Source: Candidatus Hecatella orcuttiae
GTDB lineage: Archaea; Thermoproteota; Bathyarchaeia; Hecatellales; Hecatellaceae
Direction of reading: 5' to 3'
Length of the DNA stretch: 64,000 bases
NCBI GenBank assembly: GCA_002011035.2
Contig: MTLY02000002.1
Coordinates: 256,001-320,000, forward strand
Shown in pieces: positions 1,048-38,155 of this stretch; positions within the stretch are counted from its first letter, which is position 1, and each line of letters begins with the position of its first letter. Position numbers and translations under genes: made by a program. Below the pieces are notes generated by a model. It made no database searches. It had not been told where the DNA came from and saw only the letters and a program-made list of their open reading frames with translations.

Positions 1048-1825
1048 CTTAGAACACCTCCTCAGGGTGATTTCCCTCTGTGAAACGGTAGAGCGGAGGG
1101 GGATCAACCCTTTTGAGGTTGAGGTTAAAGAAGCCCTGAACTCCCTCCGACGGCTTCTCGCAAGTTGGAAGTCCTTCGAAGAGCTCTGCCTAGACGCCCA
1201 AGCCATCAACAACCTCTCCAAGGTCGTTAGGCTTCAAGGGGACTGGATTAAACGCCGATCAGCCCTCCACGGAGTGGACCCTGAGACCGTTGAAGCCCGG
1301 ATAGCGAAGCTGAAGCCCGAAGAGCTAGCCGGAGTCTTCTTAGGAGCATGGCGTCCGCTTGTTAGGCTGGAAAAGCTTTCCTTAGAAAGGTTGAAGGAAG
1401 CCTTCTGCTACTGGAAGGGGCTTCCTCCTCGAGGAGAACGTGGAGAAGATTTTCTCCTCCCTTCCTTGGAGGTTTCTACTTCCATGGATGAGGTTCTGAA
1501 AATGGTTTGGGAAGGGGAAGACTTTGATCAAACTCTTAGGAACTTCTGGGAGGAACTTCGCCTCAAGGCAAAGGAGGGGGGAGGTAAAATCTCCTACTGG
1601 AAGTTTGTGGCGGATGAAAGCTTCGCAAAGCTGGTGGTGAGAGCCTACCTGACCAGCTTTCTGCTCACCTACGGCTACGCCCGGCTGGAGGTGGAACCCT
1701 TAGAGGGGGACATAACCCTTATCCCTAACCCCGAACCGGTCACTAAGAAAAACGTCGGCTCATCGGTGGCCATATCTCTAGACCGTTTTCTCTGGGAAAA
1801 ACTGCGGGAGGAAAAGACATCGTGA
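1019..1825 (+). CDS. Kleisin (ScpA-like) subunit; probable CTG start at 1019 (ORF track start 1067)
   Basis: N-terminal LEHLLRVI...INPFEVEV resembles ScpA LDLLLxLI...IDPWDIDI; C-terminal SYWKFV...FLLTYGYARLEVEPLEGDI resembles the ScpA C-terminal winged helix; directly follows SMC. Confidence 0.75.
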   Translation: MKPARRSKDNLEHLLRVISLCETVERRGINPFEVEVKEALNSLRRLLASWKSFEELCLDAQAINNLSKVVRLQGDWIKRRSALHGVDPETVEARIAKLKPEELAGVFLGAWRPLVRLEKLSLERLKEAFCYWKGLPPRGERGEDFLLPSLEVSTSMDEVLKMVWEGEDFDQTLRNFWEELRLKAKEGGGKISYWKFVADESFAKLVVRAYLTSFLLTYGYARLEVEPLEGDITLIPNPEPVTKKNVGSSVAISLDRFLWEKLREEKTS

Positions 1826-2433
1826 CTGAGGAAGAAACCGCCGCGGCCTACGCCAGGAAGCTGAAAAGAGCAGCTCAAATGCTGTTTTTCCAGAGACACC
1901 GTGTTCCGGGCCTCCGAGGCTGGGAGCTGAGGAAATCCCTAGGCAAAGATTACATGAAAGTGGTGGAGCTTCTCAACTTCGAACTAGGGAAACTGGGCCT
2001 TCAGGTTAAAGTCATCCCGGAAACCAGTGAAACCGAGCGTCCGGAGAGGCTTACCGATGAGGAACTGGATAGGGCGAGGTTTTACATCACGCTGGGAGGC
2101 TCGCCTACGGCTACGGAAACCCAGCTGGCAGGATGGAGGATCGATGACCTAGCGGTGCTCGCGGCCTCCTTGGCCTACATCTTGGCAAGACAGGGGAAGG
2201 CTCCGAAAAGCGAGGTGGAGAAGCTTTTGAAGGAGAAGCTTCCCGAATGGAGGGTTAACCTCAGCCTCGACCGCTTCATCAAGATGAAATACTTGTCGTT
2301 GGATGAGAATGGGGTTCTCCGCTTAGACTGGAGGACGAGGGCGGAGGTGGATTTGAAAACATTGTTGGAGTTGCTTCTTACAGAGGAAACAACCTCGGCC
2401 TCCTCGGAGGGAAAAAGCCCTTCAACATCCTAA
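1822..2433 (+). CDS. Putative KITE (tandem winged-helix) subunit, Nse1/Nse3-like
   Basis: About 200 aa, two WH-sized halves, C-terminal LDRFIKMKYLSLDENGVLRLDWRTRAEV; overlaps kleisin stop by 4 nt. Confidence 0.6.
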   Translation: MTEEETAAAYARKLKRAAQMLFFQRHRVPGLRGWELRKSLGKDYMKVVELLNFELGKLGLQVKVIPETSETERPERLTDEELDRARFYITLGGSPTATETQLAGWRIDDLAVLAASLAYILARQGKAPKSEVEKLLKEKLPEWRVNLSLDRFIKMKYLSLDENGVLRLDWRTRAEVDLKTLLELLLTEETTSASSEGKSPSTS

Positions 2434-2684
2434 GATTTCAGAGACTTCTCAGCGGCGATCATGGTTAACGTGGACTTGACCTCAGGCATCCTTCGGAGCT
2501 TGCTTTCAACGAGAGCCTTAATTTCGTTTAGGTTTTCCACTTCCACCCGGAGAATGAGGTCGTAGATGCCGTAGATGCGGCTGACCTCCTTCACCGAGGG
2601 TGTACCTCGGATTTTCTCGGCTACTTCCTCGTCTGTTCCAGACTGCACATTGAGTAGCACAAAAGCCAAGGGCATTTCAAACAC
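2430..2684 (-). CDS. Stand-alone Lrp/AsnC ligand-binding (RAM) domain protein
   Basis: AFVLLNV...YGIYDLILRVE...VKSTLTMI pattern; no HTH. Confidence 0.85.
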   Translation of the reverse strand: MFEMPLAFVLLNVQSGTDEEVAEKIRGTPSVKEVSRIYGIYDLILRVEVENLNEIKALVESKLRRMPEVKSTLTMIAAEKSLKS

Positions 2685-2776
2685 GTCTGCCTTGGGGAAA
2701 TTAAATTTTTATGAATTCAACATTCAACGGTTAAAAGACTTTCGGTATCCCCCAAAAAATTTTCCTAACATGAAAC

Positions 2777-3661
2777 CTAGTTTCCTCTCCGCCAGTCAGC
2801 GGAGCTAGTCCGTCTCAGAATGGCTATGGGGCAATGTTCTGTTTCTTTGAGCATCTTCCACGTCACTTCCGTCATGGCCACGTTGAACTTTTCCGCCACA
2901 TCCCACATGGTTTTACCTGCCCCATAGCCGAGGATGTGATGGGAGGCTTCGGCCAAGTTCAAGGCTTCTTCCACTGTTAAAGCCTCCGGAGGATACACGG
3001 CTTTAGGAGTTGAACGGGGTTTAAGCTTAAACATCCTTCCAAAAAGGTAGTAGAGGAAGCCTCCTCCAGAACGAATGCCACTCACACCAGTAGGTGAAGG
3101 GGATAAGTGAAGCCTTCGAAAAGAATAGGTTTTATCCGAATCCACGATGAGAACGATGACGGATTTTTTCAGCCTCTGCTGGAAGGCAGCATAAATTTTT
3201 TCTGCCACATCCCCAGGTCTGGGGAGAGGAAGGCTGACGTAGGAATAGGGAAGGTTGGTGGCGTCGACGCCTCCCTCTGAGCTGAATCTTAAAGCTTGAA
3301 GCAAGCCGGTTTTCTCCAACACTAGCTGCTTATGCCTAGCTCCTTCAACTTGGGGGTAGTCTCTCAGCCGGAGCATAGTCAGAGGCTTCAGCCGGCATAG
3401 GAAACCCAGCAGATATCCCCAGCAAAGCCTCATCCACACTCGGACGAGAAACTGAGAGGCGAAGCCGGGTTCAACTTTGCTTTCGTCGACAATGTTCCCT
3501 TGGGCGATGGAGAGAGCTTTCTCTGAAACAGCTAAAATGTCCCCGTTTCTAACCAGCTTCCCCGCGGTTCGAAGAATTTCTTCCAAGTAGTTGGTTCCCG
3601 GAAGCCAGTAAGCTGTTCTAATTCTCTTAACCTTCAGCCCGGGAATTTTCGGAGGAGACAT
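2777..3661 (-). CDS. CofE-like (F420-0:gamma-glutamyl ligase family) protein
   Basis: GDILAVSEKALSIAQG, GGVDATN and VLIVDSD motifs. Confidence 0.75.
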   Translation of the reverse strand: MSPPKIPGLKVKRIRTAYWLPGTNYLEEILRTAGKLVRNGDILAVSEKALSIAQGNIVDESKVEPGFASQFLVRVWMRLCWGYLLGFLCRLKPLTMLRLRDYPQVEGARHKQLVLEKTGLLQALRFSSEGGVDATNLPYSYVSLPLPRPGDVAEKIYAAFQQRLKKSVIVLIVDSDKTYSFRRLHLSPSPTGVSGIRSGGGFLYYLFGRMFKLKPRSTPKAVYPPEALTVEEALNLAEASHHILGYGAGKTMWDVAEKFNVAMTEVTWKMLKETEHCPIAILRRTSSADWRRGN

Positions 3662-3759
3662 CCAAGGTTAACCGGCATGGATGACCAAAAAAACTTTCCG
3701 CAACCTGAGGCAATTAATAATAAGGGCTTTTCGAATACCTTTCCGTAGGAGTTAAGCCC

Positions 3760-30201: not shown

Positions 30202-30714
30202 ATGATGTCCTCTTTGATCACCTTATCACCTTCCAGGATGAAGGAGACGAATTCAACGGTGAAGAAAATTTTCACGTTTCTTTCCCTCAACAACGCCAAA
30301 GAGGGGTACACCTTCCTCTACGAAGGAAAACCTAAAGTCTGTGAAGACTGCGAGTACGTCAAAGTCTGCCATGAAAACTTAACCCCCCATACCGCCTACA
30401 CCGTCGCAAGTGTGAAGGAAAAACAGGTAAGCTGCCAGGTTTTCGAAGGAGACGCTCGCCTGGTGGAGGTTCAGCCGGCAGAGGTGGAGGGCGCTGTGGA
30501 AGTTCATCTTGCCATTCCCGGCGCGCTCATAAGGTTTAATCCTCAACCTTGCAGCCGGCTTCACTGCGAAAAATTCAACCTCTGCGTCCCCAACGCCTTG
30601 GTGGAGGGAGCCGCCTGCAGGGTGATGGAGCTCCGTGAGAGATTCGTCTGCCCTAGGACGGGGGTGCAGCTTCAGGTTTCTCTTCTTTCCCAGCGGGTTG
30701 AGGAGGAGCCTTAG
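30202..30714 (+). CDS. UPF0179-family protein (start possibly GTG 30259)
   Basis: AKEGYTF.Y.G...CEDC...C and C-terminal Cys cluster. Confidence 0.8.
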   Translation: MMSSLITLSPSRMKETNSTVKKIFTFLSLNNAKEGYTFLYEGKPKVCEDCEYVKVCHENLTPHTAYTVASVKEKQVSCQVFEGDARLVEVQPAEVEGAVEVHLAIPGALIRFNPQPCSRLHCEKFNLCVPNALVEGAACRVMELRERFVCPRTGVQLQVSLLSQRVEEEP

Positions 30715-31402
30715 CCTCTTTCCGCCGGTGTCTTTCGATGAACGTCACCGTCTCCACCGAGGGCAGAAACTTCATGAAGTCGGCGGCGAGTCCTCTCTTT
30801 GCCAGCTGGAGGCCTTCCAGGGCGAAGCTTTCCTCGGGAAGAGTGACGGTGACAGCTTTCTCGGAAATCTCCAGTTCAAACAGGTCTACGTTCACGGGGG
30901 GAATTCTCCGGTGGAGAAGGGCCTTCGCCTTTTCCAGAGGAGACTGGAGAACCTGTTTGACCTCCACTTCGTAGATGAGGGTTCGGCCGGCCAGGGGGGG
31001 ATTGAAATCCACCTGCACTCTCCCCGCGCCTACGCTTCGAATGGTCGCTAGTTTTCCGTCTACTTCGACTTCCATCCCGGGGGAGGGGGAAATATTTTGG
31101 TCTTTAAACTTCTTGAGGGGTATCAGCTTGATTTTCCCCGGGTCCCTGAGCCCGAAGGCTCTTTCCGGGGGGATTTCCACTACGGTCTTTTGCCCCACTT
31201 CCAAGCCGGGAAGTTTTTCGTCCAGCCCCCTCAGAACCCAGCCTTCCCCGACGACCACCAGCATGGGCTCGTAGAGGGTGTTTTCCCTGTAGATTTTCGC
31301 CTCTTTGGCCACTTCTTGGAGGCTGGTGTCGAAGACCGTGTCGGTTTCTTTCACTTTAGCCGTGTAGTCGAGAAGGATGAAATCTCCTTTTTCGATAGGC
31401 AT
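30653..31402 (-). CDS. FKBP-type peptidyl-prolyl isomerase (long archaeal type); probable ATG start at 31402
   Basis: GDFILLDYT, FDTS, PPERAFG, VDFNPPLAGRTL. Confidence 0.9.
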   Translation of the reverse strand: MPIEKGDFILLDYTAKVKETDTVFDTSLQEVAKEAKIYRENTLYEPMLVVVGEGWVLRGLDEKLPGLEVGQKTVVEIPPERAFGLRDPGKIKLIPLKKFKDQNISPSPGMEVEVDGKLATIRSVGAGRVQVDFNPPLAGRTLIYEVEVKQVLQSPLEKAKALLHRRIPPVNVDLFELEISEKAVTVTLPEESFALEGLQLAKRGLAADFMKFLPSVETVTFIERHRRKEAKAPPQPAGKEEKPEAAPPS

Positions 31403-31537
31403 GGCAGCTCCCTTTTGAAACTTACCAATATGGGGGGTGGAGGTCTTTAACTTTTTTCCTTCATAGTCAATAAAGGTCTTTATAGTCTTCATAGATAACT
31501 TTAATTTCACACATCCTCATCCTAAATCCGAACAGCC

Positions 31538-32443
31538 ATGAAAACCGCTACAGCCTTCGCCCCAGCCCACATCACAGGACTCTTCACAGTGGAAGGACAT
31601 CGCTGCCCGGAGATGAGAGGGTCCAGAGGCGTAGGCGTCAGCCTAGGAAAAGGCGTTCACACCACGGTGTACGCGGAGAAAAGCCCCCGGTGGAAGACAC
31701 AGTTTAGGCTCAACGGCAGACCGGCTGAAGCTGAGGTTTCTAAGGCAACGGTGGAAGAGTTCAAACCGTTTGCCCCGCCCCACGAGGTCACCGTAGACCA
31801 CCGGGTGGAGGTTCCCATAGGAGCGGGCTATGGGTCCAGCGGTGCAGGCGCCCTGAGCTTAGCCTTAGCTTTGAACGAAGCCTTGAATGCAGGGCTTTCC
31901 TCCGCCGAGGCCGCGCAGCTCGCCCACGTGGCGGAAGTGAAGTGCGGAACCGGGTTGGGAACGGTGCTCGCGGAAACTTGCGGCGGCTTGGGGTTGAGGG
32001 TGAGGGCGGGAGCCCCGGGAATAGGGCTATGCAGGAGGCTGCCTGCCTCCCGCGGAAAAGTTGTTTCCATCTACTGGAAGCCTCTTTCCACCCGGAGTTT
32101 TCTGAAAGACCCTCTGGTTCTAAAAAAGATTAGTAGGGAAGGAAACAGGCTTCTTCACCGCTTTATGGAAAAACCTACCGTGGAGGGTTTTCTAAGCTGC
32201 TCCAGAGAATTTGCGGACAGGATTTCCCTTTTCACCGGAACCCCCATGCAGGAGTTCATGAAAAAACTGGAGGGGGAAGGTTTTCCCCTTTTCACCGTGA
32301 ACATGTTCGGCTGGGCTCTTTTCACACTGGTGACTCCTGAGCAGCTTCCTGAGCTTCTGAGCTGCCTTCACAGCCCGAAATTCTTAGGTGGGCGTGTGCT
32401 CGTAGCCGACATCGACGGAGAGGGGGCTCGGCTGCTTGGTTGA
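31538..32443 (+). CDS. pok: Pantoate kinase (GHMP family)
   Basis: AFAPAHITG, GSRGVG, PIGAGYGSSGAGAL, AHVAEV..GTGLGTV. Confidence 0.92.
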   Translation: MKTATAFAPAHITGLFTVEGHRCPEMRGSRGVGVSLGKGVHTTVYAEKSPRWKTQFRLNGRPAEAEVSKATVEEFKPFAPPHEVTVDHRVEVPIGAGYGSSGAGALSLALALNEALNAGLSSAEAAQLAHVAEVKCGTGLGTVLAETCGGLGLRVRAGAPGIGLCRRLPASRGKVVSIYWKPLSTRSFLKDPLVLKKISREGNRLLHRFMEKPTVEGFLSCSREFADRISLFTGTPMQEFMKKLEGEGFPLFTVNMFGWALFTLVTPEQLPELLSCLHSPKFLGGRVLVADIDGEGARLLG

Positions 32444-33242
32444 AGGTTTCATTCCCCCCAGCCACCCCCGAGCTGAATCTTTGAGAGTTAGAGAAAAACT
32501 CGTCTCCGCTTACAGGCAGGGAATCGTCGTGGAGGAAGGCCTCATCGCCCACGGCCGGGGGGAATGCTTCGACTACATTTTGGGCGAAAAAACTCAGCCT
32601 TTCGCCTTGGAGGCTGAGAAGACAGCGGCGGCAGCGTTGCTTCTGGCTCAGCATCCGGTCATCTCTGTCAACGGAAACGCCGCCGCCCTCTGCGCCGGGG
32701 GGCTGGTGGAGTTGGCGAAGCTGGTGGGAGCGAAGATCGAGGTGAACCTTTTCCACTGGTCTGAGAAGAGGGAGAGACTCATCGTGCAGCTCCTCAAGGC
32801 TGAGGGAGCGGAGGAAGTTTTGGGCTTAGGCTCAGAGGGGGAAGCAGTCATCCCAGAGCTTCAAAGCTGGAGGGGGAAAGTTAACCCCCGAGGCATCTTC
32901 AAGGCGGACACCGTGTTTTTGGCTGTCGAAGACGGAGACAGGACCGCGGCTTTGAGGAACATGGGTAAGAGGGTTATTGCCGTGGATTTGAATCCCTTCT
33001 CGAGAACAGCCCTTGCAGCTTCCATCACCATCGTCGACAACCTCCTCCGCGCCGTGCCTAACTTGAGGGCGGCGGCTGAAGCCTTGAAGCACGAGGGGCG
33101 AGAGAAGCTTGAAAAAATCGTGGAGAACTACAGCAACCCTGAAAACCTGCGGGAGGCTGTTGATTTCATCAACACCAGGCTTCGCTCCCTCGAATTTGGA
33201 AAGTTTGAACATCAACCCCAAACCGGAGAAGGGACGCCTTGA
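32436..33242 (+). CDS. pps: 4-phosphopantoate--beta-alanine ligase
   Basis: HPRAESL, GLIAHGRGECFDY, SVNGN, EDGDR, DLNPFSRT. Confidence 0.95.
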   Translation: MVEGFIPPSHPRAESLRVREKLVSAYRQGIVVEEGLIAHGRGECFDYILGEKTQPFALEAEKTAAAALLLAQHPVISVNGNAAALCAGGLVELAKLVGAKIEVNLFHWSEKRERLIVQLLKAEGAEEVLGLGSEGEAVIPELQSWRGKVNPRGIFKADTVFLAVEDGDRTAALRNMGKRVIAVDLNPFSRTALAASITIVDNLLRAVPNLRAAAEALKHEGREKLEKIVENYSNPENLREAVDFINTRLRSLEFGKFEHQPQTGEGTP

Positions 33243-34546
33243 AGACTGGAGAAGCCCCTAAGCTTCAACTGGCCTTGGACTTCACCGACCTCCACCGCGC
33301 TCTCCCAGTGGCTGAGGAGGCGGTTGAGGCAGGGGTGGACTGGATAGAGGTGGGCACCCCTCTTATCAAGGGTGAAGGCCTCGATGCTGTGAGAGAGATC
33401 AGGCGGAGGTTTCCCGGCCGCGTTGTTTTGGCTGACATGAAGACGGTGGACACAGGGGCCGTGGAGGTGGAGATGGCGGCGAAGGCGGGGGCCGACGTGG
33501 TGATTCTTCTCGGCCTCGCCGACGACAGCACGGTGAGGGAGGCAGTAGAGGCTGGGAGAAGGTATGGAGCTCGAATCATGGTCGACCTTCTGGGGGTTGA
33601 CGCCATGGCGTCCCGGGCGGTGGAGTTGGAGAAACTGGGAGTCGCCTACGTCTGCGTCCACGTGGGCATCGACCAGCAGATGCGGGGGTTAAAGCCCCTA
33701 GAAGCCCTCAGGGAAGTGGTGAAAGCGGTGAGGGTTCCTGTGGCCGTGGCCGGCGGGATCAACAGCGAAACCGCGGGTTTAGCCGTAAAAGCCGGGGCCA
33801 GCATCGTCGTGATAGGCGGAGCCATCACTAAGGCTGAAGATGTCAAGGCTGCGGTAAAGACCATCAAGAAAGCCATGGGTTTGAGGAAATCCATAGCCAC
33901 GAGGCTTTACAAGAAATACGAGAGGGAGGAAGAACTTCAGAAAGTTTTCGCTGAGATTTCAACCCCAAACCTCTCCGACGCCCTGCAGAGGATGGAGGAA
34001 ATGAGGGGAATCAAGCCTGTCACCTCCGGAGTTAAGGCGGTGGGGAAGGCTTTGACGGTGAGAACTTACCCGGGAGACTGGGCGAAGCCGGTGGAGGCTG
34101 TAGACCTCGCCTCCCCAGGGGAAGTGTTGGTCATCGACGCGGGGGGCGGAGAGAAAGCCGTGTGGGGAGAGCTGGCCACTTGGAGCAGCATTCAGAGAAA
34201 GCTCGGCGGGGTGGTCATCGACGGCGGGATAAGAGACGTGGAAGTCGTTCGGAAGCTCAGGTTTCCCGCCTTCGCCAGGCATGTGACCCCCACCGCCGGG
34301 GAGCCCAAAGGATTCGGGGAAATCAACGTGGAAATCCGCTGCGGTGGAGTGAAGGTGCGGCCTGGGGATTGGATTGTGGCCGATGACAATGGGGTTCTGG
34401 TCGTCCCGAGGGAGATGGCTGTGGAGGCCGCCAACAGGGGGAAAGATATTTTCGAAAAAGAGCAGAGGGTGAGGGCTGAAATCAGAAGAGGAAGCACTCT
34501 CTCCAAGGTTTTGAAGCTGAGAAAGTGGGAGAAAATTCTAGGCTAG
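33239..34546 (+). CDS. Fusion of 3-hexulose-6-phosphate synthase and RraA/HMG-aldolase domain
   Basis: HPS motifs LQLALD, EVGTPLIK, ADMKTVDTG, HVGIDQQ, AVAGGI; RraA motifs STPNLSDA, WGEL, DGGIRD, PGDWIVADDNGV. Confidence 0.92.
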   Translation: MKTGEAPKLQLALDFTDLHRALPVAEEAVEAGVDWIEVGTPLIKGEGLDAVREIRRRFPGRVVLADMKTVDTGAVEVEMAAKAGADVVILLGLADDSTVREAVEAGRRYGARIMVDLLGVDAMASRAVELEKLGVAYVCVHVGIDQQMRGLKPLEALREVVKAVRVPVAVAGGINSETAGLAVKAGASIVVIGGAITKAEDVKAAVKTIKKAMGLRKSIATRLYKKYEREEELQKVFAEISTPNLSDALQRMEEMRGIKPVTSGVKAVGKALTVRTYPGDWAKPVEAVDLASPGEVLVIDAGGGEKAVWGELATWSSIQRKLGGVVIDGGIRDVEVVRKLRFPAFARHVTPTAGEPKGFGEINVEIRCGGVKVRPGDWIVADDNGVLVVPREMAVEAANRGKDIFEKEQRVRAEIRRGSTLSKVLKLRKWEKILG

Positions 34547-35503
34547 GTGGGAGAGGGGATTAAAACGAGGGTCGCCATCATGGGAGCTGGAGCCATAGGC
34601 AGCCTCTTCGGCAGCTTGCTGGCGGAGGCGGGAAACGAGGTTTACCTCATCGGCAGAGCCAGCCTCATGGAAGCTGTCAGACAGAGGGGGCTGTGGCTGA
34701 GGGGAATAACGGCGAAACATGTTCTAAGCCTTCACGCAGAAGATTCCCCCCAAAACCTGAGAAGCCAAGCTTTCGACGTGGTTTTTCTGACGGTGAAAGC
34801 CTACGACACCCAGGAGGCATGCTCCCAGCTTAAACCCATCCTAGATGGAGGAACGCCTGTGCTATGCCTCCAAAATGGAATAGGAGTGGAGGAGAAGGCT
34901 GCGAAGGCTTTGGGGAGAAGAAGCCTGTTGAGGGGTGTGACCTTCTGCGGAGCCTTCTTGGAGGCCCCCGGCTCCGTCCGGTTTACAGGCCGGGGGGAAA
35001 CAGTCTTAGGGCTGCCTTTCAAGGAAACCGACGGTCGTCTCCTAGAGAAAGCTTGGCTGGCGGCAGAAGCCCTCAACGCAGCTGGGCTGCCTGCGAGGGT
35101 GGAGAAAAAAATCGAGGGCGCTGTGTGGATGAAGACCCTGATAAACGCTGGAATAAACCCCTACGGAGCTCTGACGGGTTTAAGAAACGGGGAGCTTCTG
35201 GAGGTGGGAGAAATGGGAGAGCTCATGGCTGAAACCGTGGAGGAAGGAACTCGCGTCGCCTGCCGGCTGGGGGTGGCCCTCCCCGGCGACCCGGTGGAGG
35301 AGATGTTTAGGACTGTGAAGGCCACGGCTGGGAACTTCAACTCCATGCTTCAGGACGTTAGGAGGGGGAAGCCCACGGAGATCGACTACCTCAACGGGGC
35401 GGTGGCCAAGCTGGGTTTCAAGGCTTCGGTTCCCGCTCCCTTAAACAGGCTGCTGACTGTGCTGGTGAAAAGCTTGGAAAGAAGGGGGAAGCCTACTTGT
35501 TAA
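34547..35503 (+). CDS. panE: Ketopantoate reductase
   Basis: GAGAIGS, VKAYD, LQNGIG, W.KTLINAGIN, SMLQD, TEIDYLNG. Confidence 0.94.
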   Translation: MGEGIKTRVAIMGAGAIGSLFGSLLAEAGNEVYLIGRASLMEAVRQRGLWLRGITAKHVLSLHAEDSPQNLRSQAFDVVFLTVKAYDTQEACSQLKPILDGGTPVLCLQNGIGVEEKAAKALGRRSLLRGVTFCGAFLEAPGSVRFTGRGETVLGLPFKETDGRLLEKAWLAAEALNAAGLPARVEKKIEGAVWMKTLINAGINPYGALTGLRNGELLEVGEMGELMAETVEEGTRVACRLGVALPGDPVEEMFRTVKATAGNFNSMLQDVRRGKPTEIDYLNGAVAKLGFKASVPAPLNRLLTVLVKSLERRGKPTC

Positions 35504-36762
35504 CCGGCCATCCGTCCAAAGCCATCATAGGAACCGCCGGCAGGCAGCTGGAGGGAAAGCGGATAGTCTTAGGCGTCACCGGGAGCATCGCCGCCCTCCG
35601 TGCCCCCGAGGTTGCCCGAGAGCTCATGAGGAGGGGGGCGGAGGTCTACGCAGTCATGACTTCTGACGCTCAGAAGATCATTCATCCCTATGCCTTGGAA
35701 TGGGCCACGGGAAACCCTGTGGTAACCGAGATCACCGGGAAAATCGAATACGTGGCCGCGGCTGGGGGGGAGGGCATGGCTCCCGTGGACCTGGTGCTCG
35801 TCGCCCCTGTCACAGCTAACACCCTAGCCAAGATAGCCTGGGGCATCAGCGACACCCCGGTCACCGCCTATGTTTCCGCAGCCCTAGGGGCCCATATCCC
35901 CGTCGTCCTCGCCCCCGCCATGCACCGCTGCCTATGGGACAGTCCCGCTGCCTCTGAAAACCTCAGTCGACTTAGGGCCTTAGGCCTCACCATCGTGGAA
36001 CCTGAGCTGACGGAGGGGAAAGCCAAACTGGTGGAGGTGGAAGAACTGGTGGAGGCGGTGATTCGAAGGCTAACTCTGCCTACCATGGCTGAGATGAACG
36101 TCCTAGTAACAGCCGGGCCGACGGTGGAGTATCTTGACCCCATCCGGGTTCTGACCAACCGAAGCTCGGGAAGAATGGGCGTGGCCCTAGCCCGGGAAGC
36201 CCTCCGGCGGGGTGCTCAGGTTACCTTGGTCTACGGTCCCGGCACCGCCAAGCCTCCCTCAGGAGCGAAGGTGATCCGGGTTGAGACTTCCGACCAAATG
36301 CGGGAGACGGTGGTTTCCCAGCTTCGGAGAGGAAACTGCCATGTCTTCTTTGCAGCGGCAGCGGTCTCCGACTTCACCCCCCTCCAGCCTTCAAGCCGGA
36401 AGCTTTCCACCGCCCAAACCCCTGAGCTCACGGTGAGGCTGAGGGCGACGGAGAAGCTTGTGGAGGAAGTCAAAAGGCTCAGCCCCCAAACTTTTTTGGT
36501 GATCTTCAAAGCCGAATACCAAGTGCCTGAAGAGGAGCTGGCGGCTAAGGCTGAGGAGCGGATGAAGCAAACGGAAGCCGACCTGGTGGTGGCCAACGAC
36601 GTGGGGAGGAAGGGCGCTGAGTTCGGCTCCAAAACCACCGAAGCCCTCATCCTGGATAAAGCCGGAGAAAGGGTAAAGGTTCCCCTCTCTCGGAAAGAAG
36701 ATGTGGCAGCGAAAATCTTAGACTTGGTACAGGAAAAACTGAAAACCCGGAAGCCCGAATAG
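35497..36762 (+). CDS. coaBC: Bifunctional phosphopantothenoylcysteine synthetase/decarboxylase
   Basis: GVTGSIAA, PVTANTLAK, PAMH, TAGPT.E..DPIR..TNRSSGRMG, AAVSDF, VVAND. Confidence 0.95.
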   Translation: MLTGHPSKAIIGTAGRQLEGKRIVLGVTGSIAALRAPEVARELMRRGAEVYAVMTSDAQKIIHPYALEWATGNPVVTEITGKIEYVAAAGGEGMAPVDLVLVAPVTANTLAKIAWGISDTPVTAYVSAALGAHIPVVLAPAMHRCLWDSPAASENLSRLRALGLTIVEPELTEGKAKLVEVEELVEAVIRRLTLPTMAEMNVLVTAGPTVEYLDPIRVLTNRSSGRMGVALAREALRRGAQVTLVYGPGTAKPPSGAKVIRVETSDQMRETVVSQLRRGNCHVFFAAAAVSDFTPLQPSSRKLSTAQTPELTVRLRATEKLVEEVKRLSPQTFLVIFKAEYQVPEEELAAKAEERMKQTEADLVVANDVGRKGAEFGSKTTEALILDKAGERVKVPLSRKEDVAAKILDLVQEKLKTRKPE

Positions 36763-36769
36763 CGCAGCC

Positions 36770-37642
36770 GTGGGGATGGAAAGCTTGGTGGCGAAGGCCA
36801 GAAGGCCTGTGGTGACATTGACCACCGACTTCGGCACCGCGGATTCCTATGTGGCGGAGATGAAGGCGGTTATTCTCTCCCTCTGCCCTGAGGCGGTCCT
36901 CGTCGACATCACCCACGAGGTTGAAAGATTCAACATCAGAATGGGCGCCTACCTCTTGGCCCGCTCAGCTTGGCTGTTCCCCAGAGGAACCGTGCACCTG
37001 GCCGTGGTGGACCCGGGAGTCGGAGGCGGGCGGAAGCCCCTCATCTTGGAGACGCCCTCAGCCTTCTTCGTCGGCCCTGACAACGGCCTCCTGACCGCGG
37101 CGGCCAAAAGACAGGGCATAAGCCACGCCTACCAGATAAGGAAAGAATACTGCTGGCCGTCGAAGGTTTCCGAAACCTTCCACGGGAGGGACCTCTTCGC
37201 CCCTGCAGCCGGCCACTTGGCAGCGGGGAAGCCTCCGTCCTCCTTGGGCGTAGAGGTCTCCACCTACGTGGAGTCCGCCTTCCCATCTCCTAAAATCTCC
37301 GGCAGGATAGTGGAGGGGGAGGTCATCCACGTAGACCGTTTCGGTAACCTAGTAACCAACATAGACCGAAAGCTTCCCGAAACTCGAGGGCTGCGGTTTG
37401 GCTCCGCCATCCGAATTCAAGCGGGGAAAATCCAGCACCCCCGAAAGGTTAGGTTTGCTGAAACCTACTCCCAAGCGGCGAGGGGAGAACTCCTACTCAC
37501 CGTGGGAAGCGGAGGCTTCTTGGAAGTCTCCGTCAACCAGGGGGACGCCTCCAAGCGGCTGGGCTTGAAAGCTGGAGGGAAAATCAAACTGCTCCTCCCA
37601 GCCTCCGGGGGGAGAAAACTAGAGCCTATCCGTTCGAGCTAA
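36770..37642 (+). CDS. SAM hydroxide adenosyltransferase (DUF62, chlorinase/fluorinase family)
   Basis: LTTDFG, VVDPGVG, GPDNG, TFHGRDLFAP, DRFGN. Confidence 0.93.
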   Translation: MGMESLVAKARRPVVTLTTDFGTADSYVAEMKAVILSLCPEAVLVDITHEVERFNIRMGAYLLARSAWLFPRGTVHLAVVDPGVGGGRKPLILETPSAFFVGPDNGLLTAAAKRQGISHAYQIRKEYCWPSKVSETFHGRDLFAPAAGHLAAGKPPSSLGVEVSTYVESAFPSPKISGRIVEGEVIHVDRFGNLVTNIDRKLPETRGLRFGSAIRIQAGKIQHPRKVRFAETYSQAARGELLLTVGSGGFLEVSVNQGDASKRLGLKAGGKIKLLLPASGGRKLEPIRSS

Positions 37643-38155
37643 GTTTCGTATGCGGTCTATGCCGCCGATTTGGACGATGTACTTTGCAACGGAGGCGGGG
37701 ACGAGGGCTTCCCAGCTTTCGCCGTTGAGAATCTTGTTGCGGACGTTGGTGGCGTAAAGTTTTCTCCTATCCAAGTAGGGAATGCCCTCCACCTTGAAGC
37801 CGGCTTCCTGGAAGAGTTGACGGCAGAGGGCGTCGTTGGTGAAAACTACTTCGAACTTGGGCGTGTAGGCCACTACCTGAGCGACCCAGATGCTGTGAAC
37901 TTGGGTGTCGGGCACGGGGATGATGGAGTAGGAGGCTCTGTCCACTCCCACCTCATCCAAGGCCAGCCTCAGCATGGTGAATCTTTCCCCCGCGGTGAAG
38001 GGGTTTTGAGGGTCATGGCTGAACTGGGCGCTTCCAATCCCTATTATCAGCTCCTTAACCTGCCGGAGGGCTTGGGTGACAGCGTGAACGTGTCCCCGGT
38101 GAACAGGCTGAAACCTCCCCACGTAGAAGCCTGAATTCCACTTCACCAGCTTCAC
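37619..38155 (-). CDS. nadM: Nicotinamide-nucleotide adenylyltransferase
   Basis: GRFQPVHRGH, GSAQ.SH...NPFTAGER. Confidence 0.93.
   Translation of the reverse strand: MKLVKWNSGFYVGRFQPVHRGHVHAVTQALRQVKELIIGIGSAQFSHDPQNPFTAGERFTMLRLALDEVGVDRASYSIIPVPDTQVHSIWVAQVVAYTPKFEVVFTNDALCRQLFQEAGFKVEGIPYLDRRKLYATNVRNKILNGESWEALVPASVAKYIVQIGGIDRIRNLARTDRL

What the first reader, a model, noticed from the sequence alone, without database searches (positions are those of the whole stretch)
31538..36762. CoA operon lacks panB but carries an HPS-RraA fusion in its place: candidate folate-independent ketopantoate synthase
Seen: pok, pps, HPS-RraA, panE and coaBC are chained by overlaps or abutting stop/start codons (8-nt overlap, 4-nt overlap, 0-nt gap, 7-nt overlap). 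The operon covers ketopantoate to phosphopantetheine, but no panB (ketopantoate hydroxymethyltransferase) occurs in the window. Known: archaeal HPS runs the reverse RuMP pathway and releases formaldehyde from hexulose-6-phosphate. Fae-HPS fusions pair HPS with a formaldehyde-consuming domain. Several RraA-family proteins are metal-dependent HMG/CHA 2-oxoacid aldolases, and this one keeps an acidic-X20-R-D arrangement (WGE...IRD). Ketopantoate is the aldol product of 2-ketoisovalerate plus formaldehyde. Inference: the fusion may channel HPS-derived formaldehyde into an RraA-catalysed aldol reaction, coupling pentose-phosphate supply, formaldehyde disposal and CoA synthesis without folate. The fusion family itself is known, usually labelled HPS/ribonuclease regulator; I am not aware of this function having been shown.
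Basis: partly seen in the sequence, partly recalled or inferred. Interest (0 to 1): 0.9.

Follow-up and report, generated by a model that had tools for sequence, protein, structure and literature searches.

The report
Candidate folate-free ketopantoate synthase fusion
An archaeal coenzyme A operon lacks the usual first enzyme of pantoate synthesis (PanB) and carries a two-domain fusion in its place, and comparisons across hundreds of genomes suggest the fusion does that step using formaldehyde released from a sugar phosphate.

Summary
The 97%-complete genome has no panB.

- **Displacement in place:** a class-mate with panB has the operon pok-pps-panE-panB-decarboxylase-coaBC. Fusion-bearing relatives have the same operon with the fusion and no panB.
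- **Conserved linkage:** in 17 of 18 loci of the Thermoproteota-type clade the fusion touches a CoA gene, usually panE, in four different gene orders. The 18th runs off its contig, with pok and pps upstream.
- **Complementary distribution:** both genes occur together in 1 of 251 Halobacteriota (179 fusion, 49 panB), 1 of 201 Thermoplasmatota (137, 50) and 0 of 251 Thermoproteota (12, 116).
- **A bacterial class:** 79 of 81 genomes have panC, 76 the fusion and only 9 panB.
- **Catalytic residues:** the RraA domain keeps the catalytic motif of class II 2-oxoacid aldolases, and its best RraA-type structural match is HMG/CHA aldolase.
- **Other HPS fusions:** related genomes also fuse HPS to Fae or to an aldehyde:ferredoxin oxidoreductase, both formaldehyde consumers.

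Weaknesses: no biochemistry exists, kinship confounds the distribution, nine genomes carry both genes, and most other phyla show no CoA neighbours. I found no paper proposing this function.

The parts
31538..32443 (+). pok, pantoate kinase (GHMP kinase family)
   Evidence: One search gives the ORF. Searches give PF00288 and NF041122/NF040725 pantoate kinase as the best hits, below the equivalog cut-offs.
32436..33242 (+). pps, 4-phosphopantoate--beta-alanine ligase (phosphopantothenate synthetase)
   Evidence: PF02006 at 231 bits; NF010324 at 344 bits, over its cut-off of 227.
33239..34546 (+). HPS-RraA fusion (435 aa), the candidate ketopantoate-forming enzyme
   Evidence: NF005442 at 619.3 bits, over its cut-off of 593. 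AlphaFold2 model with pLDDT 91.7; the two halves match HPS 3AJX and HMG/CHA aldolase 3NOJ.
33257..33877 (+). N-terminal 3-hexulose-6-phosphate synthase domain (about residues 7-213)
   Evidence: TIGR03128 at 225.5 bits, over its cut-off of 200. TM 0.92 to 3AJX. D14, E37, K44, D66, K68, D71, H141 and D145 are invariant in 30 fusions.
33962..34543 (+). C-terminal RraA-like class II aldolase domain with its C-terminal helix (about residues 242-435)
   Evidence: PF03737 at 159 bits; the best PDB sequence match is 3NOJ (E 6e-22), with G101/D102/R123/D124 aligned to G310/E311/R332/D333; these positions are invariant or nearly so.
34547..35503 (+). panE, 2-dehydropantoate 2-reductase; starts at the base after the fusion's stop codon
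   Evidence: PF02558 plus PF08546; TIGR00745 at 266 bits, over its cut-off of 141.
35497..36762 (+). coaBC, phosphopantothenoylcysteine synthetase/decarboxylase
   Evidence: TIGR00521 at 374 bits, over its cut-off of 220.

Best explanation
The 435-aa HPS-RraA fusion is the functional replacement of PanB in this organism. It supplies 2-dehydropantoate (ketopantoate) to the PanE encoded immediately downstream.

Proposed mechanism, all inferred:
1. The N-terminal HPS domain cleaves D-arabino-3-hexulose 6-phosphate into ribulose 5-phosphate and formaldehyde. The substrate comes from fructose 6-phosphate through the PHI encoded elsewhere in the genome.
2. The C-terminal RraA-like domain is a divalent-metal class II 2-oxoacid aldolase. 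It enolises 3-methyl-2-oxobutanoate, supplied through IlvD, and adds it to that formaldehyde.
3. In net terms a hydroxymethyl group moves from a sugar phosphate to ketoisovalerate. Hexulose phosphate plays the part that methylene-tetrahydrofolate plays for PanB.
4. PanE, PoK, PPS and CoaBC then carry the product on to phosphopantetheine.

Shown here: gene order, absence of panB, conservation of catalytic residues, fold, synteny and distribution. Inferred: both activities, the substrate of the aldolase domain, and any channelling between the domains.
For: **1. Operon and substrates.** pok-pps-fusion-panE-coaBC are chained by overlaps. The genome has no panB. It does have PHI, IlvD and a separate Fae-HPS, so both proposed substrates are available and this HPS is a second copy.

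**2. Displacement in place.** G020, of the same class, has pok-pps-panE-panB-PLP decarboxylase-coaBC. G001 and G724 have pok-pps-PLP decarboxylase-fusion-panE-coaBC and no panB.

**3. Linkage survives rearrangement.**
- In family f43, 3 of 4 loci read coaBC-pok-fusion-panE-pps-decarboxylase. The fourth ends just past the fusion, with an unlabelled ORF there.
- f48 has the fusion-panE pair alone.
- f2 has coaBC-fusion.
- f26 has pok-pps-fusion up to the contig end.
- panE lies directly downstream in 16 of 18 distinct loci of this clade (window).
- In a bacterial-labelled bin, L035, a panE (TIGR00745, 286 bits) lies 0.85 kb downstream.

**4. Complementary distribution.**

| Sample | n | fusion | panB | both |
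|---|---|---|---|---|
| Bathyarchaeia relatives | 41 | 12 (+1 split) | 5 | 0 |
| Thermoproteota | 251 | 12 (+1 partial) | 116 | 0 |
| Halobacteriota | 251 | 179 | 49 | 1 |
| Thermoplasmatota | 201 | 137 (100 over cut-off) | 50 | 1 |

Ten hand-picked diverse fusion genomes have no panB (0 of 10).

**5. Need for pantoate.** Among the 41 relatives, pps occurs in 15: the 13 fusion genomes, G020 (panB beside the operon) and G038. In G038 pps is followed by a protein resembling an ECF transporter S component (the last is a lead only).

**6. Bacteria.** In the class of G044, 79 of 81 genomes have panC, 76 the fusion and 9 panB. All 9 control bacteria with panC have panB.

**7. Not simply a marker of HPS.** Three of 3 panB-bearing small Halobacteriota genomes that I examined have an HPS gene of about 400 aa but no fusion.

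**8. Chemistry.** The RraA domain is nearer to HMG/CHA aldolase than to RNase E regulators by sequence and fold. It keeps G-E...R-D. Other HPS fusions carry formaldehyde consumers: Fae and aldehyde:ferredoxin oxidoreductase. Where the fusion is missing in four methanogen-type genomes, a stand-alone RraA-like gene lies 0.8-2.6 kb from Fae-HPS.
Against: - **No biochemistry.** No biochemical or genetic test exists.
- **Substrate precedent (recalled, not tested).** As far as I recall, the characterised RraA-type aldolases use pyruvate as the nucleophile. None is known to accept ketoisovalerate, whose C3 is tertiary.
- **No CoA neighbours elsewhere.** 70 of 80 fetched loci, mostly Halobacteriota and Thermoplasmatota, show no CoA gene beside the fusion. 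Their neighbours are unrelated housekeeping genes.
- **Sugar-phosphate context.** In G050 the stand-alone RraA-like gene sits with Fae-HPS and triosephosphate isomerase.
- **Phylogeny and lifestyle confound the pattern.** The complementarity follows large clades. Only a handful of independent switches are visible, and the tree of the fusion mostly follows taxonomy (a quick tree).
- **Nine genomes carry both genes.** They are G248, G313 and seven of the bacterial class. One of the seven, G548, has a small contig carrying a panB fragment and a second panC, which may be contamination.
- **Some genomes have neither gene.** The counts are 24 Halobacteriota (by the cut-off), 15 Thermoplasmatota and 3 of the bacterial class.
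- **A gap in Methanocaldococcus.** The M. jannaschii control has pps and no panB but not the full fusion, only an RraA-like domain. The fusion therefore cannot be the only solution.
- **One residue is uncertain.** The Glu aligned with Glu199 of 3NOJ (E406) is not conserved; an invariant Glu lies two residues later (E408).
Confidence: 0.58

Rival explanations
1. The aldolase domain does make ketopantoate, but the two domains are not coupled. HPS works only in the reverse ribulose monophosphate pathway for pentose supply. The aldolase takes free formaldehyde or another C1 source, and the fusion reflects co-regulation rather than channelling.
For: In four genomes without the fusion the RraA-like protein stands alone 0.8-2.6 kb from Fae-HPS, so physical fusion is dispensable. 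The M. jannaschii control has an RraA-like domain but no full fusion.
Against: The fusion is kept in hundreds of genomes of five groups. Genomes that already own Fae-HPS keep this second HPS. HPS is fused again and again to formaldehyde users.
Confidence: 0.14
2. The fusion disposes of formaldehyde or serves central carbon metabolism and does not make ketopantoate. The RraA domain would condense formaldehyde with pyruvate or another 2-oxoacid (for example to 4-hydroxy-2-oxobutanoate), or act as an oxaloacetate decarboxylase. An unidentified enzyme or uptake would supply pantoate, and the link to CoA genes in Thermoproteota would be secondary.
For: 70 of 80 loci have no CoA neighbours. In G050 the stand-alone RraA-like gene lies with Fae-HPS and triosephosphate isomerase. 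Known relatives use pyruvate or oxaloacetate (names of 3NOJ and NF006731). PanE-family reductases are promiscuous (recalled). Nine genomes carry both panB and the fusion.
Against: panB and the fusion occupy the same operon alternately. The fusion-panE adjacency survives four gene orders. The two genes are complementary in four samples. A bacterial class has panC and the fusion but mostly lacks panB. HPS-bearing genomes with panB lack the fusion.
Confidence: 0.2
3. The RraA part is a non-catalytic regulator, as the database name 'ribonuclease regulator' implies, and modulates HPS or an RNase.
For: Only the family name (NF005442) and the shared fold with E. coli RraA.
Against: The RraA regulator models score below their cut-offs (NF006875: 71 bits against 136; TIGR02998: 42 against 241). 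The catalytic G-E...R-D positions are invariant in 81 fusions. The nearest solved relative is an aldolase. RNase E, the target of RraA, is a bacterial protein (recalled).
Confidence: 0.03

Closest known systems
PanB, ketopantoate hydroxymethyltransferase (PF02548)
   Same: PanB is the proposed functional counterpart. It is a metal-dependent enzyme that adds a C1 unit to the enolate of 3-methyl-2-oxobutanoate to give 2-dehydropantoate. In a related genome it occupies the same CoA operon.
   Different: There is no sequence or fold relationship. PanB takes the C1 unit from methylene-tetrahydrofolate, whereas the fusion would take it from hexulose 6-phosphate. The function of the fusion is untested.
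HMG/CHA aldolase of Pseudomonas putida (PDB 3NOJ) and other catalytic RraA-like proteins
   Same: This is the best sequence and structure match for the C-terminal domain. The G-(D/E) ... R-D catalytic positions are shared, and the domain is long (about 200 aa) with a C-terminal helix.
   Different: The domain scores below the CHA-aldolase equivalog cut-offs (112 bits against 179; 96 against 304). It is fused to HPS, and it occurs in anaerobes without aromatic-degradation context. The proposed nucleophile is ketoisovalerate rather than pyruvate.
Fae-HPS and HPS-PHI fusions of the archaeal reverse ribulose monophosphate pathway
   Same: They share the HPS domain (TIGR03128 over its cut-off; 9LJ9 and 3AJX) and the logic of fusing HPS to the enzyme before or after it. 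The genome also encodes Fae-HPS.
   Different: Here the partner is an aldolase-type domain. The gene is a second HPS copy and in Thermoproteota lies in the CoA operon.
Ketopantoaldolase, EC 4.1.2.12 (recalled: an activity described in the 1950s with no gene assigned)
   Same: The reaction is the one proposed for the C-terminal domain: formaldehyde plus 3-methyl-2-oxobutanoate gives 2-dehydropantoate without folate.
   Different: It is known only as an activity in bacterial extracts. No link to this family has been made, and I recall this entry from memory rather than from any call.

Membership tests
NF005442 / PRK07028, 'bifunctional hexulose-6-phosphate synthase/ribonuclease regulator' | Full-length match above the curated cut-off, with both domains in one polypeptide | tested here: met
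   619.3 bits against 593, residues 6-432 on model positions 3-428. PF00215 plus PF03737.
3-hexulose-6-phosphate synthase (TIGR03128 RuMP_HxlA) | Domain match above the cut-off and the HPS fold | tested here: met
   225.5 bits against 200. TM 0.92, rmsd 1.6 and 43% identity to 3AJX.
3-hexulose-6-phosphate synthase (TIGR03128 RuMP_HxlA) | Conserved metal-binding and catalytic residues of the HPS/KGPDC group (the D-x-K-x-x-D motif is recalled) | tested here: met
   D66, K68, D71, E37, K44, H141 and D145 are invariant in 30 fusions and at 97% or more in 81. That these are the catalytic residues is recalled, not tested.
3-hexulose-6-phosphate synthase (TIGR03128 RuMP_HxlA) | Cleaves or forms hexulose 6-phosphate | not testable with these tools
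   Needs an enzyme assay.
Catalytic RraA-like class II aldolases (HMG/CHA aldolase type) | G-(D/E)-x20-R-D metal and 2-oxoacid binding motif | tested here: met
   G310/E311 and R332/D333 align with G101/D102 and R123/D124 of 3NOJ; they are invariant or nearly so.
Catalytic RraA-like class II aldolases (HMG/CHA aldolase type) | Glutamate on the C-terminal helix that completes the neighbouring active site (Glu199 of 3NOJ; role recalled) | tested here: inconclusive
   E406 aligns with Glu199 but is not conserved. E408, two residues on, is invariant. The alignment has a gap just before this point.
Catalytic RraA-like class II aldolases (HMG/CHA aldolase type) | Membership of the CHA aldolase/oxaloacetate decarboxylase equivalogs (NF006731, TIGR02798) | tested here: not met
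   111.6 bits against a cut-off of 179, and 96.1 against 304.5. It belongs to the same superfamily but is not an ortholog.
RraA, regulator of RNase E | Match above the cut-off of the RraA regulator models | tested here: not met
   NF006875 at 71.4 bits against 136; TIGR02998 at 41.8 against 241.
PanB (PF02548) | Sequence membership | tested here: not met
   No PF02548 match anywhere in the genome. The fusion shows no such hit. The claim is one of analogy only.
Functional class 'ketopantoate-forming enzyme' | Forms 2-dehydropantoate from 3-methyl-2-oxobutanoate and a C1 donor | not testable with these tools
   Only genomic context and distribution bear on it (57/58).

The most novel reading that the evidence does not exclude
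HPS-RraA is the missing folate-independent ketopantoate synthase of methanogens, Archaeoglobi, anaerobic Thermoplasmatota, part of the Thermoproteota and a class of Planctomycetes-labelled bacteria. It would be a two-domain enzyme that moves a hydroxymethyl group from hexulose 6-phosphate to ketoisovalerate, so that a sugar phosphate replaces a pterin cofactor as C1 donor. Stand-alone RraA-like proteins next to Fae-HPS would do the same job in lineages without the fusion.
Probability: 0.5. Interest if true: 0.9.

Novelty: new variant of a known kind. Interest (0 to 1): 0.85.

Why it matters
Coenzyme A is universal, yet how methanogens and many other anaerobic archaea make pantoate has, as far as I recall (Genschel's comparative study of 2004, not seen here), never been settled, because they lack panB.

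If the assignment is right, several things follow.
- It closes that gap with one widely conserved gene.
- It gives a function to a family labelled 'ribonuclease regulator'.
- It corrects metabolic reconstructions that score these organisms as pantothenate auxotrophs.
- It adds a new way of donating a C1 unit: formaldehyde carried on a sugar phosphate and handed to a class II aldolase.
- It offers a folate-independent route to ketopantoate for engineering.

The claim can be tested directly with ordinary enzymology and with genetics in Methanosarcina.

Tried and rejected
**Literature.** Ten full-text searches found no paper linking HPS-RraA or RraA-like proteins to pantoate. I saw only listings and abstracts. 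The exception is PMC6650551, where I read three passages. It states that PoK/PPS are missing from Bathyarchaeota among others, and it does not discuss panB in methanogens. The library lacks most subscription journals, and supplements were not consulted, so prior work may exist.

**Expression.** No RNA holder was listed for the operon. I did not lay reads.

**Neighbours elsewhere.** Neighbours of the fusion in Archaeoglobaceae, Thermoplasmata, Geoglobus-type archaea, Aciduliprofundum and the Planctomycetes-labelled bins gave no shared theme and no CoA link. They include an HTH protein, HMG-CoA synthase/thiolase/DUF35, PAC2, Nudix, D-aminoacyl-tRNA deacylase, TctA, thymidylate kinase, rubrerythrin, PTPS and McsB-like kinase. 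The pps 4.5 kb from the fusion in L040 is probably chance.

**panC loci of the bacterial class.** They showed no match to the fusion, panE or the other CoA-operon queries nearby.

**Beta-alanine.** tblastn with the decarboxylase of G001 found only weak hits (27% identity or less) in the window's genome, so the source of beta-alanine here is open.

**Tree.** The careful tree search did not finish in time, so the tree cited is the quick one.

**Not run.** I sent no complex-prediction job, because I claim no binding between separate proteins.

**Counts to read with care.**
- For genomes reached through loci of other tools, no completeness or taxonomy was shown.
- Searches set no completeness floor.
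- L006 and L116 are the same contig, and other loci may duplicate genomes.

Full report
**1. The observation**

One search lists five consecutive plus-strand ORFs:

| Coordinates | Length | Assignment | Main evidence |
|---|---|---|---|
| 31538-32443 | 301 aa | pantoate kinase | GHMP kinase; best NCBIfam hits are the two pantoate kinase models, below their equivalog cut-offs |
| 32436-33242 | 268 aa | phosphopantothenate synthetase | PF02006, 231 bits |
| 33239-34546 | 435 aa | HPS-RraA fusion | NF005442, 619.3 bits against a cut-off of 593 |
| 34547-35503 | 318 aa | 2-dehydropantoate reductase | TIGR00745, 266 bits |
| 35497-36762 | 421 aa | CoaBC | TIGR00521, 374 bits |

- The fusion has an OMP-decarboxylase/HPS domain at residues 7-209 and an RraA-like domain at 242-388.
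- A SAM hydrolase gene follows 7 nt after coaBC.

The window lies in a genome of 1.75 Mb in three contigs, 97% complete. The names of the nearest public contigs place it among Bathyarchaeia/Hecatellales. PF02548 (PanB) has no match anywhere in it. tblastn with the PanB of a class-mate also finds nothing.

**2. What else the genome holds**

- The only other HPS copy found in the genome is a 395-aa Fae-HPS fusion on another contig. This organism therefore has the usual archaeal reverse ribulose monophosphate enzyme, and the HPS in the CoA operon is an extra copy.
- PHI (TIGR03127, 184 bits against a cut-off of 160) can supply hexulose 6-phosphate.
- Dihydroxy-acid dehydratase can supply ketoisovalerate.
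- The fusion holds the only RraA-like domain in the genome.

**3. The protein**

- **Model:** an AlphaFold2 model built on 30 fusions is confident (pLDDT 91.7).
- **N-terminal half:** Foldseek matches it to HPS 3AJX (TM 0.92).
- **C-terminal half:** the best match is HMG/CHA aldolase 3NOJ, ahead of the RNase E regulators. By sequence the C-terminal part also hits 3NOJ first (E 6e-22). In that alignment G101, D102, R123 and D124 of the aldolase fall on G310, E311, R332 and D333.
- **Conservation:** in 81 fusions from 80 public loci plus the window, WGELA, RD and several HPS residues (D14, E37, K44, D66, K68, D71, H141, D145) are kept at 97% or more (for 30 sequences).
- **One uncertain residue:** the glutamate aligned with Glu199 of 3NOJ is not conserved, but an invariant one lies two residues later.
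- **Model scores:** the RraA regulator models and the CHA-aldolase equivalogs all score below their cut-offs.

The domain is therefore a catalytic-type RraA-like protein of its own subfamily.

**4. Synteny**

Of 80 public loci found with the fusion, CoA genes lie nearby in ten:
- L003-L009: pok, pps, panE and coaBC in various combinations.
- L035: a panE (TIGR00745, 286 bits) lies 0.85 kb downstream.
- L040: pps lies 4.5 kb away.
- The seventy others have unrelated neighbours.

I then fetched the fusion's surroundings in further Thermoproteota genomes (read):

| Genomes | Family code | Gene order |
|---|---|---|
| G001, G724 | f1, f21 | pok-pps-PLP decarboxylase-fusion-panE-coaBC |
| G658, G687, G807 (G801 ends just past the fusion, with an unlabelled ORF there) | f43 | coaBC-pok-fusion-panE-pps-decarboxylase |
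| G720, G743, G813 | f48 | fusion-panE only |
| G014 | f2 | coaBC-fusion, with pok and pps elsewhere |
| G584 | f26 | pok-pps-fusion, up to the contig end |

Counting the window, L003-L009 and these loci gives 18 distinct loci (L006 and L116 are one contig). panE lies directly downstream of the fusion in 16 of them. Linkage that persists through four gene orders points to function rather than to mere inheritance.

**5. Displacement in place**

G020, a member of the same class, has panB. Its operon reads pok, pps, panE, panB (PF02548, 322 bits), PLP-dependent decarboxylase, coaBC. The same operon thus carries either panB or the fusion.

**6. Who needs pantoate**

Among 41 relatives, pps occurs in 15:
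- The 12 genomes with the full fusion, plus G006, where the fusion appears in two pieces on separate contigs, the HPS piece lying 134 nt downstream of pps.
- G020, which has panB.
- G038, which has neither. There pps is followed by a 203-aa protein with no family hit. The protein atlas likens it to S components of ECF transporters (score 0.91, a lead only), which would fit uptake of pantoate.
- None of the 26 genomes without pps has the fusion.

These counts are not independent, because most fusion genomes belong to one family and the genes are linked.

**7. Distribution against panB**

| Sample | n | fusion | panB | both | neither |
|---|---|---|---|---|---|
| Relatives | 41 | 12 (+1 split) | 5 | 0 | 23-24 |
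| Thermoproteota | 251 | 12 over cut-off (+1 partial) | 116 | 0 | about 122 |
| Halobacteriota | 251 | 179 over cut-off | 49 | 1 (G248) | 24 |
| Thermoplasmatota | 201 | 137 spanning both domains (100 over cut-off) | 50 | 1 (G313) | 15 |

- The Thermoproteota fusions fall in families f1, f21, f43, f48 and f26.
- Of the 24 Halobacteriota with neither gene by the cut-off, at least five have near-full matches just under it.
- Four that I examined have a stand-alone RraA-like gene of about 230 aa lying 0.8-2.6 kb from Fae-HPS. In G050 the order is Fae-HPS, triosephosphate isomerase, RraA-like. Its best family hit is the fusion model.
- Ten diverse fusion genomes chosen by hand, five of them labelled bacterial, have no panB.

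**8. Bacteria**

Four of five bacterial-labelled fusion genomes have panC. In the class that holds G044, labelled Planctomycetes, the counts over 81 genomes are:
- 79 have panC.
- 76 have a full-length fusion. All score just under the archaeal-trained cut-off, and one is frameshifted.
- 9 have panB. Seven of these also have the fusion, and two are among the five without it.
- About 69 genomes thus have panC and the fusion but no panB.
- All nine control bacteria with panC have panB.

**9. Is the pattern only a marker of the ribulose monophosphate pathway?**

Three of three small panB-bearing Halobacteriota genomes that I looked at have an HPS gene of about 400 aa and no fusion. Two large ones have a stand-alone RraA-like protein, panB and no HPS. 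The fusion therefore tracks the absence of panB more closely than it tracks the presence of HPS. The sample is small, and kinship was not shown for these genomes.

**10. A parallel**

Many Thermoproteota carry a protein of about 700-900 aa with an aldehyde:ferredoxin oxidoreductase N-terminal part and HPS at the C-terminus. Together with Fae-HPS, this makes three fusions of HPS. In two of them the partner is expected to consume formaldehyde, which supports the reading that the RraA-like partner does so too.

**11. Reading**

The best-supported explanation is that the fusion replaces PanB. HPS would release formaldehyde from hexulose 6-phosphate, and the class II aldolase domain would add it to the enolate of ketoisovalerate. 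PanE then reduces the product. I put this at about 0.58, with a further 0.14 on the same product without coupling of the domains. The main rival, another 2-oxoacid acceptor or a role in central carbon metabolism only, keeps about 0.2.

The rival draws on these points:
- The lack of CoA neighbours in most phyla.
- The sugar-phosphate context of the stand-alone genes.
- The known pyruvate specificity of relatives.
- The nine genomes with both genes.

The tree of the fusion (quick method) largely follows taxonomy, with a separate bacterial clade. The big counts therefore reflect few independent events. The independent signals are the alternation within Bathyarchaeia, the rearranged operons, the L035 pairing and the bacterial class.

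**12. Novelty**

The family is known and named. The function is not assigned in any paper I could search. The library omits most subscription journals, and I read no supplements. I recall that the absence of panB from methanogens was noted in Genschel's comparative study of 2004, and that a folate-independent 'ketopantoaldolase' activity (EC 4.1.2.12) has no gene. Neither was seen here.

Noticed in passing
L112:3364-5454 (-), L110:179-1855 (+); many genomes: A fusion of aldehyde:ferredoxin oxidoreductase (PF02730/PF01314) with a C-terminal HPS domain, in open frames of about 700-900 aa. It is widespread in Thermoproteota families f28, f43 and f48 and in some Bathyarchaeia. It looks like HPS coupled to oxidation of its formaldehyde; I know of no description of it.
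   Followed up: partly
L085:6992-7603 (+), genome G038: In the one Bathyarchaeon with pok and pps but neither panB nor the fusion, pps is followed (4-nt overlap) by a 203-aa protein. It has no Pfam or NCBIfam hit, and the protein atlas likens it to ECF transporter S components (0.91). It is a possible pantoate or pantothenate importer.
   Followed up: partly
41 Bathyarchaeia genomes: 26 of 41 have no PPS gene. This agrees with the statement in PMC6650551 that PoK/PPS are missing from Bathyarchaeota. Four of these 26 nevertheless have panB (G021, G032, G036, G037), which implies another route from pantoate onward.
   Followed up: no
L099 (G050) 1480-3667 (-); also G072, G100, G131: The gene row is Fae-HPS, triosephosphate isomerase, stand-alone RraA-like protein (234 aa), in Halobacteriota genomes that lack both the fusion and panB.
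   Followed up: partly
window 36770-37642 (+): An (R)-S-adenosyl-L-methionine hydrolase (PF01887/PF20257) starts 7 nt after coaBC. It also lies 0.7-1.4 kb downstream of coaBC in five related loci (L003, L004, L005, L008, L088).
   Followed up: no
Whole genome G000; L088:5895-7055, L084:8628-9797: Related CoA operons include a PLP-dependent decarboxylase (PF00282), presumably the beta-alanine source. The window's operon lacks it, and the genome has only weak matches (27% identity or less).
   Followed up: partly
window 30653-31510 (-) and 37619-38155 (-): The operon is flanked by an FKBP26-type peptidyl-prolyl isomerase, whose start lies 27 nt from the start of pok on the other strand, and by an archaeal nicotinamide-nucleotide adenylyltransferase.
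   Followed up: no
G248 (L089, L090) and G313 (L091, L092): These are the two archaeal genomes with both the fusion and panB. Both genes lie on long contigs (187-459 kb), so contamination by a small contig is unlikely.
   Followed up: partly
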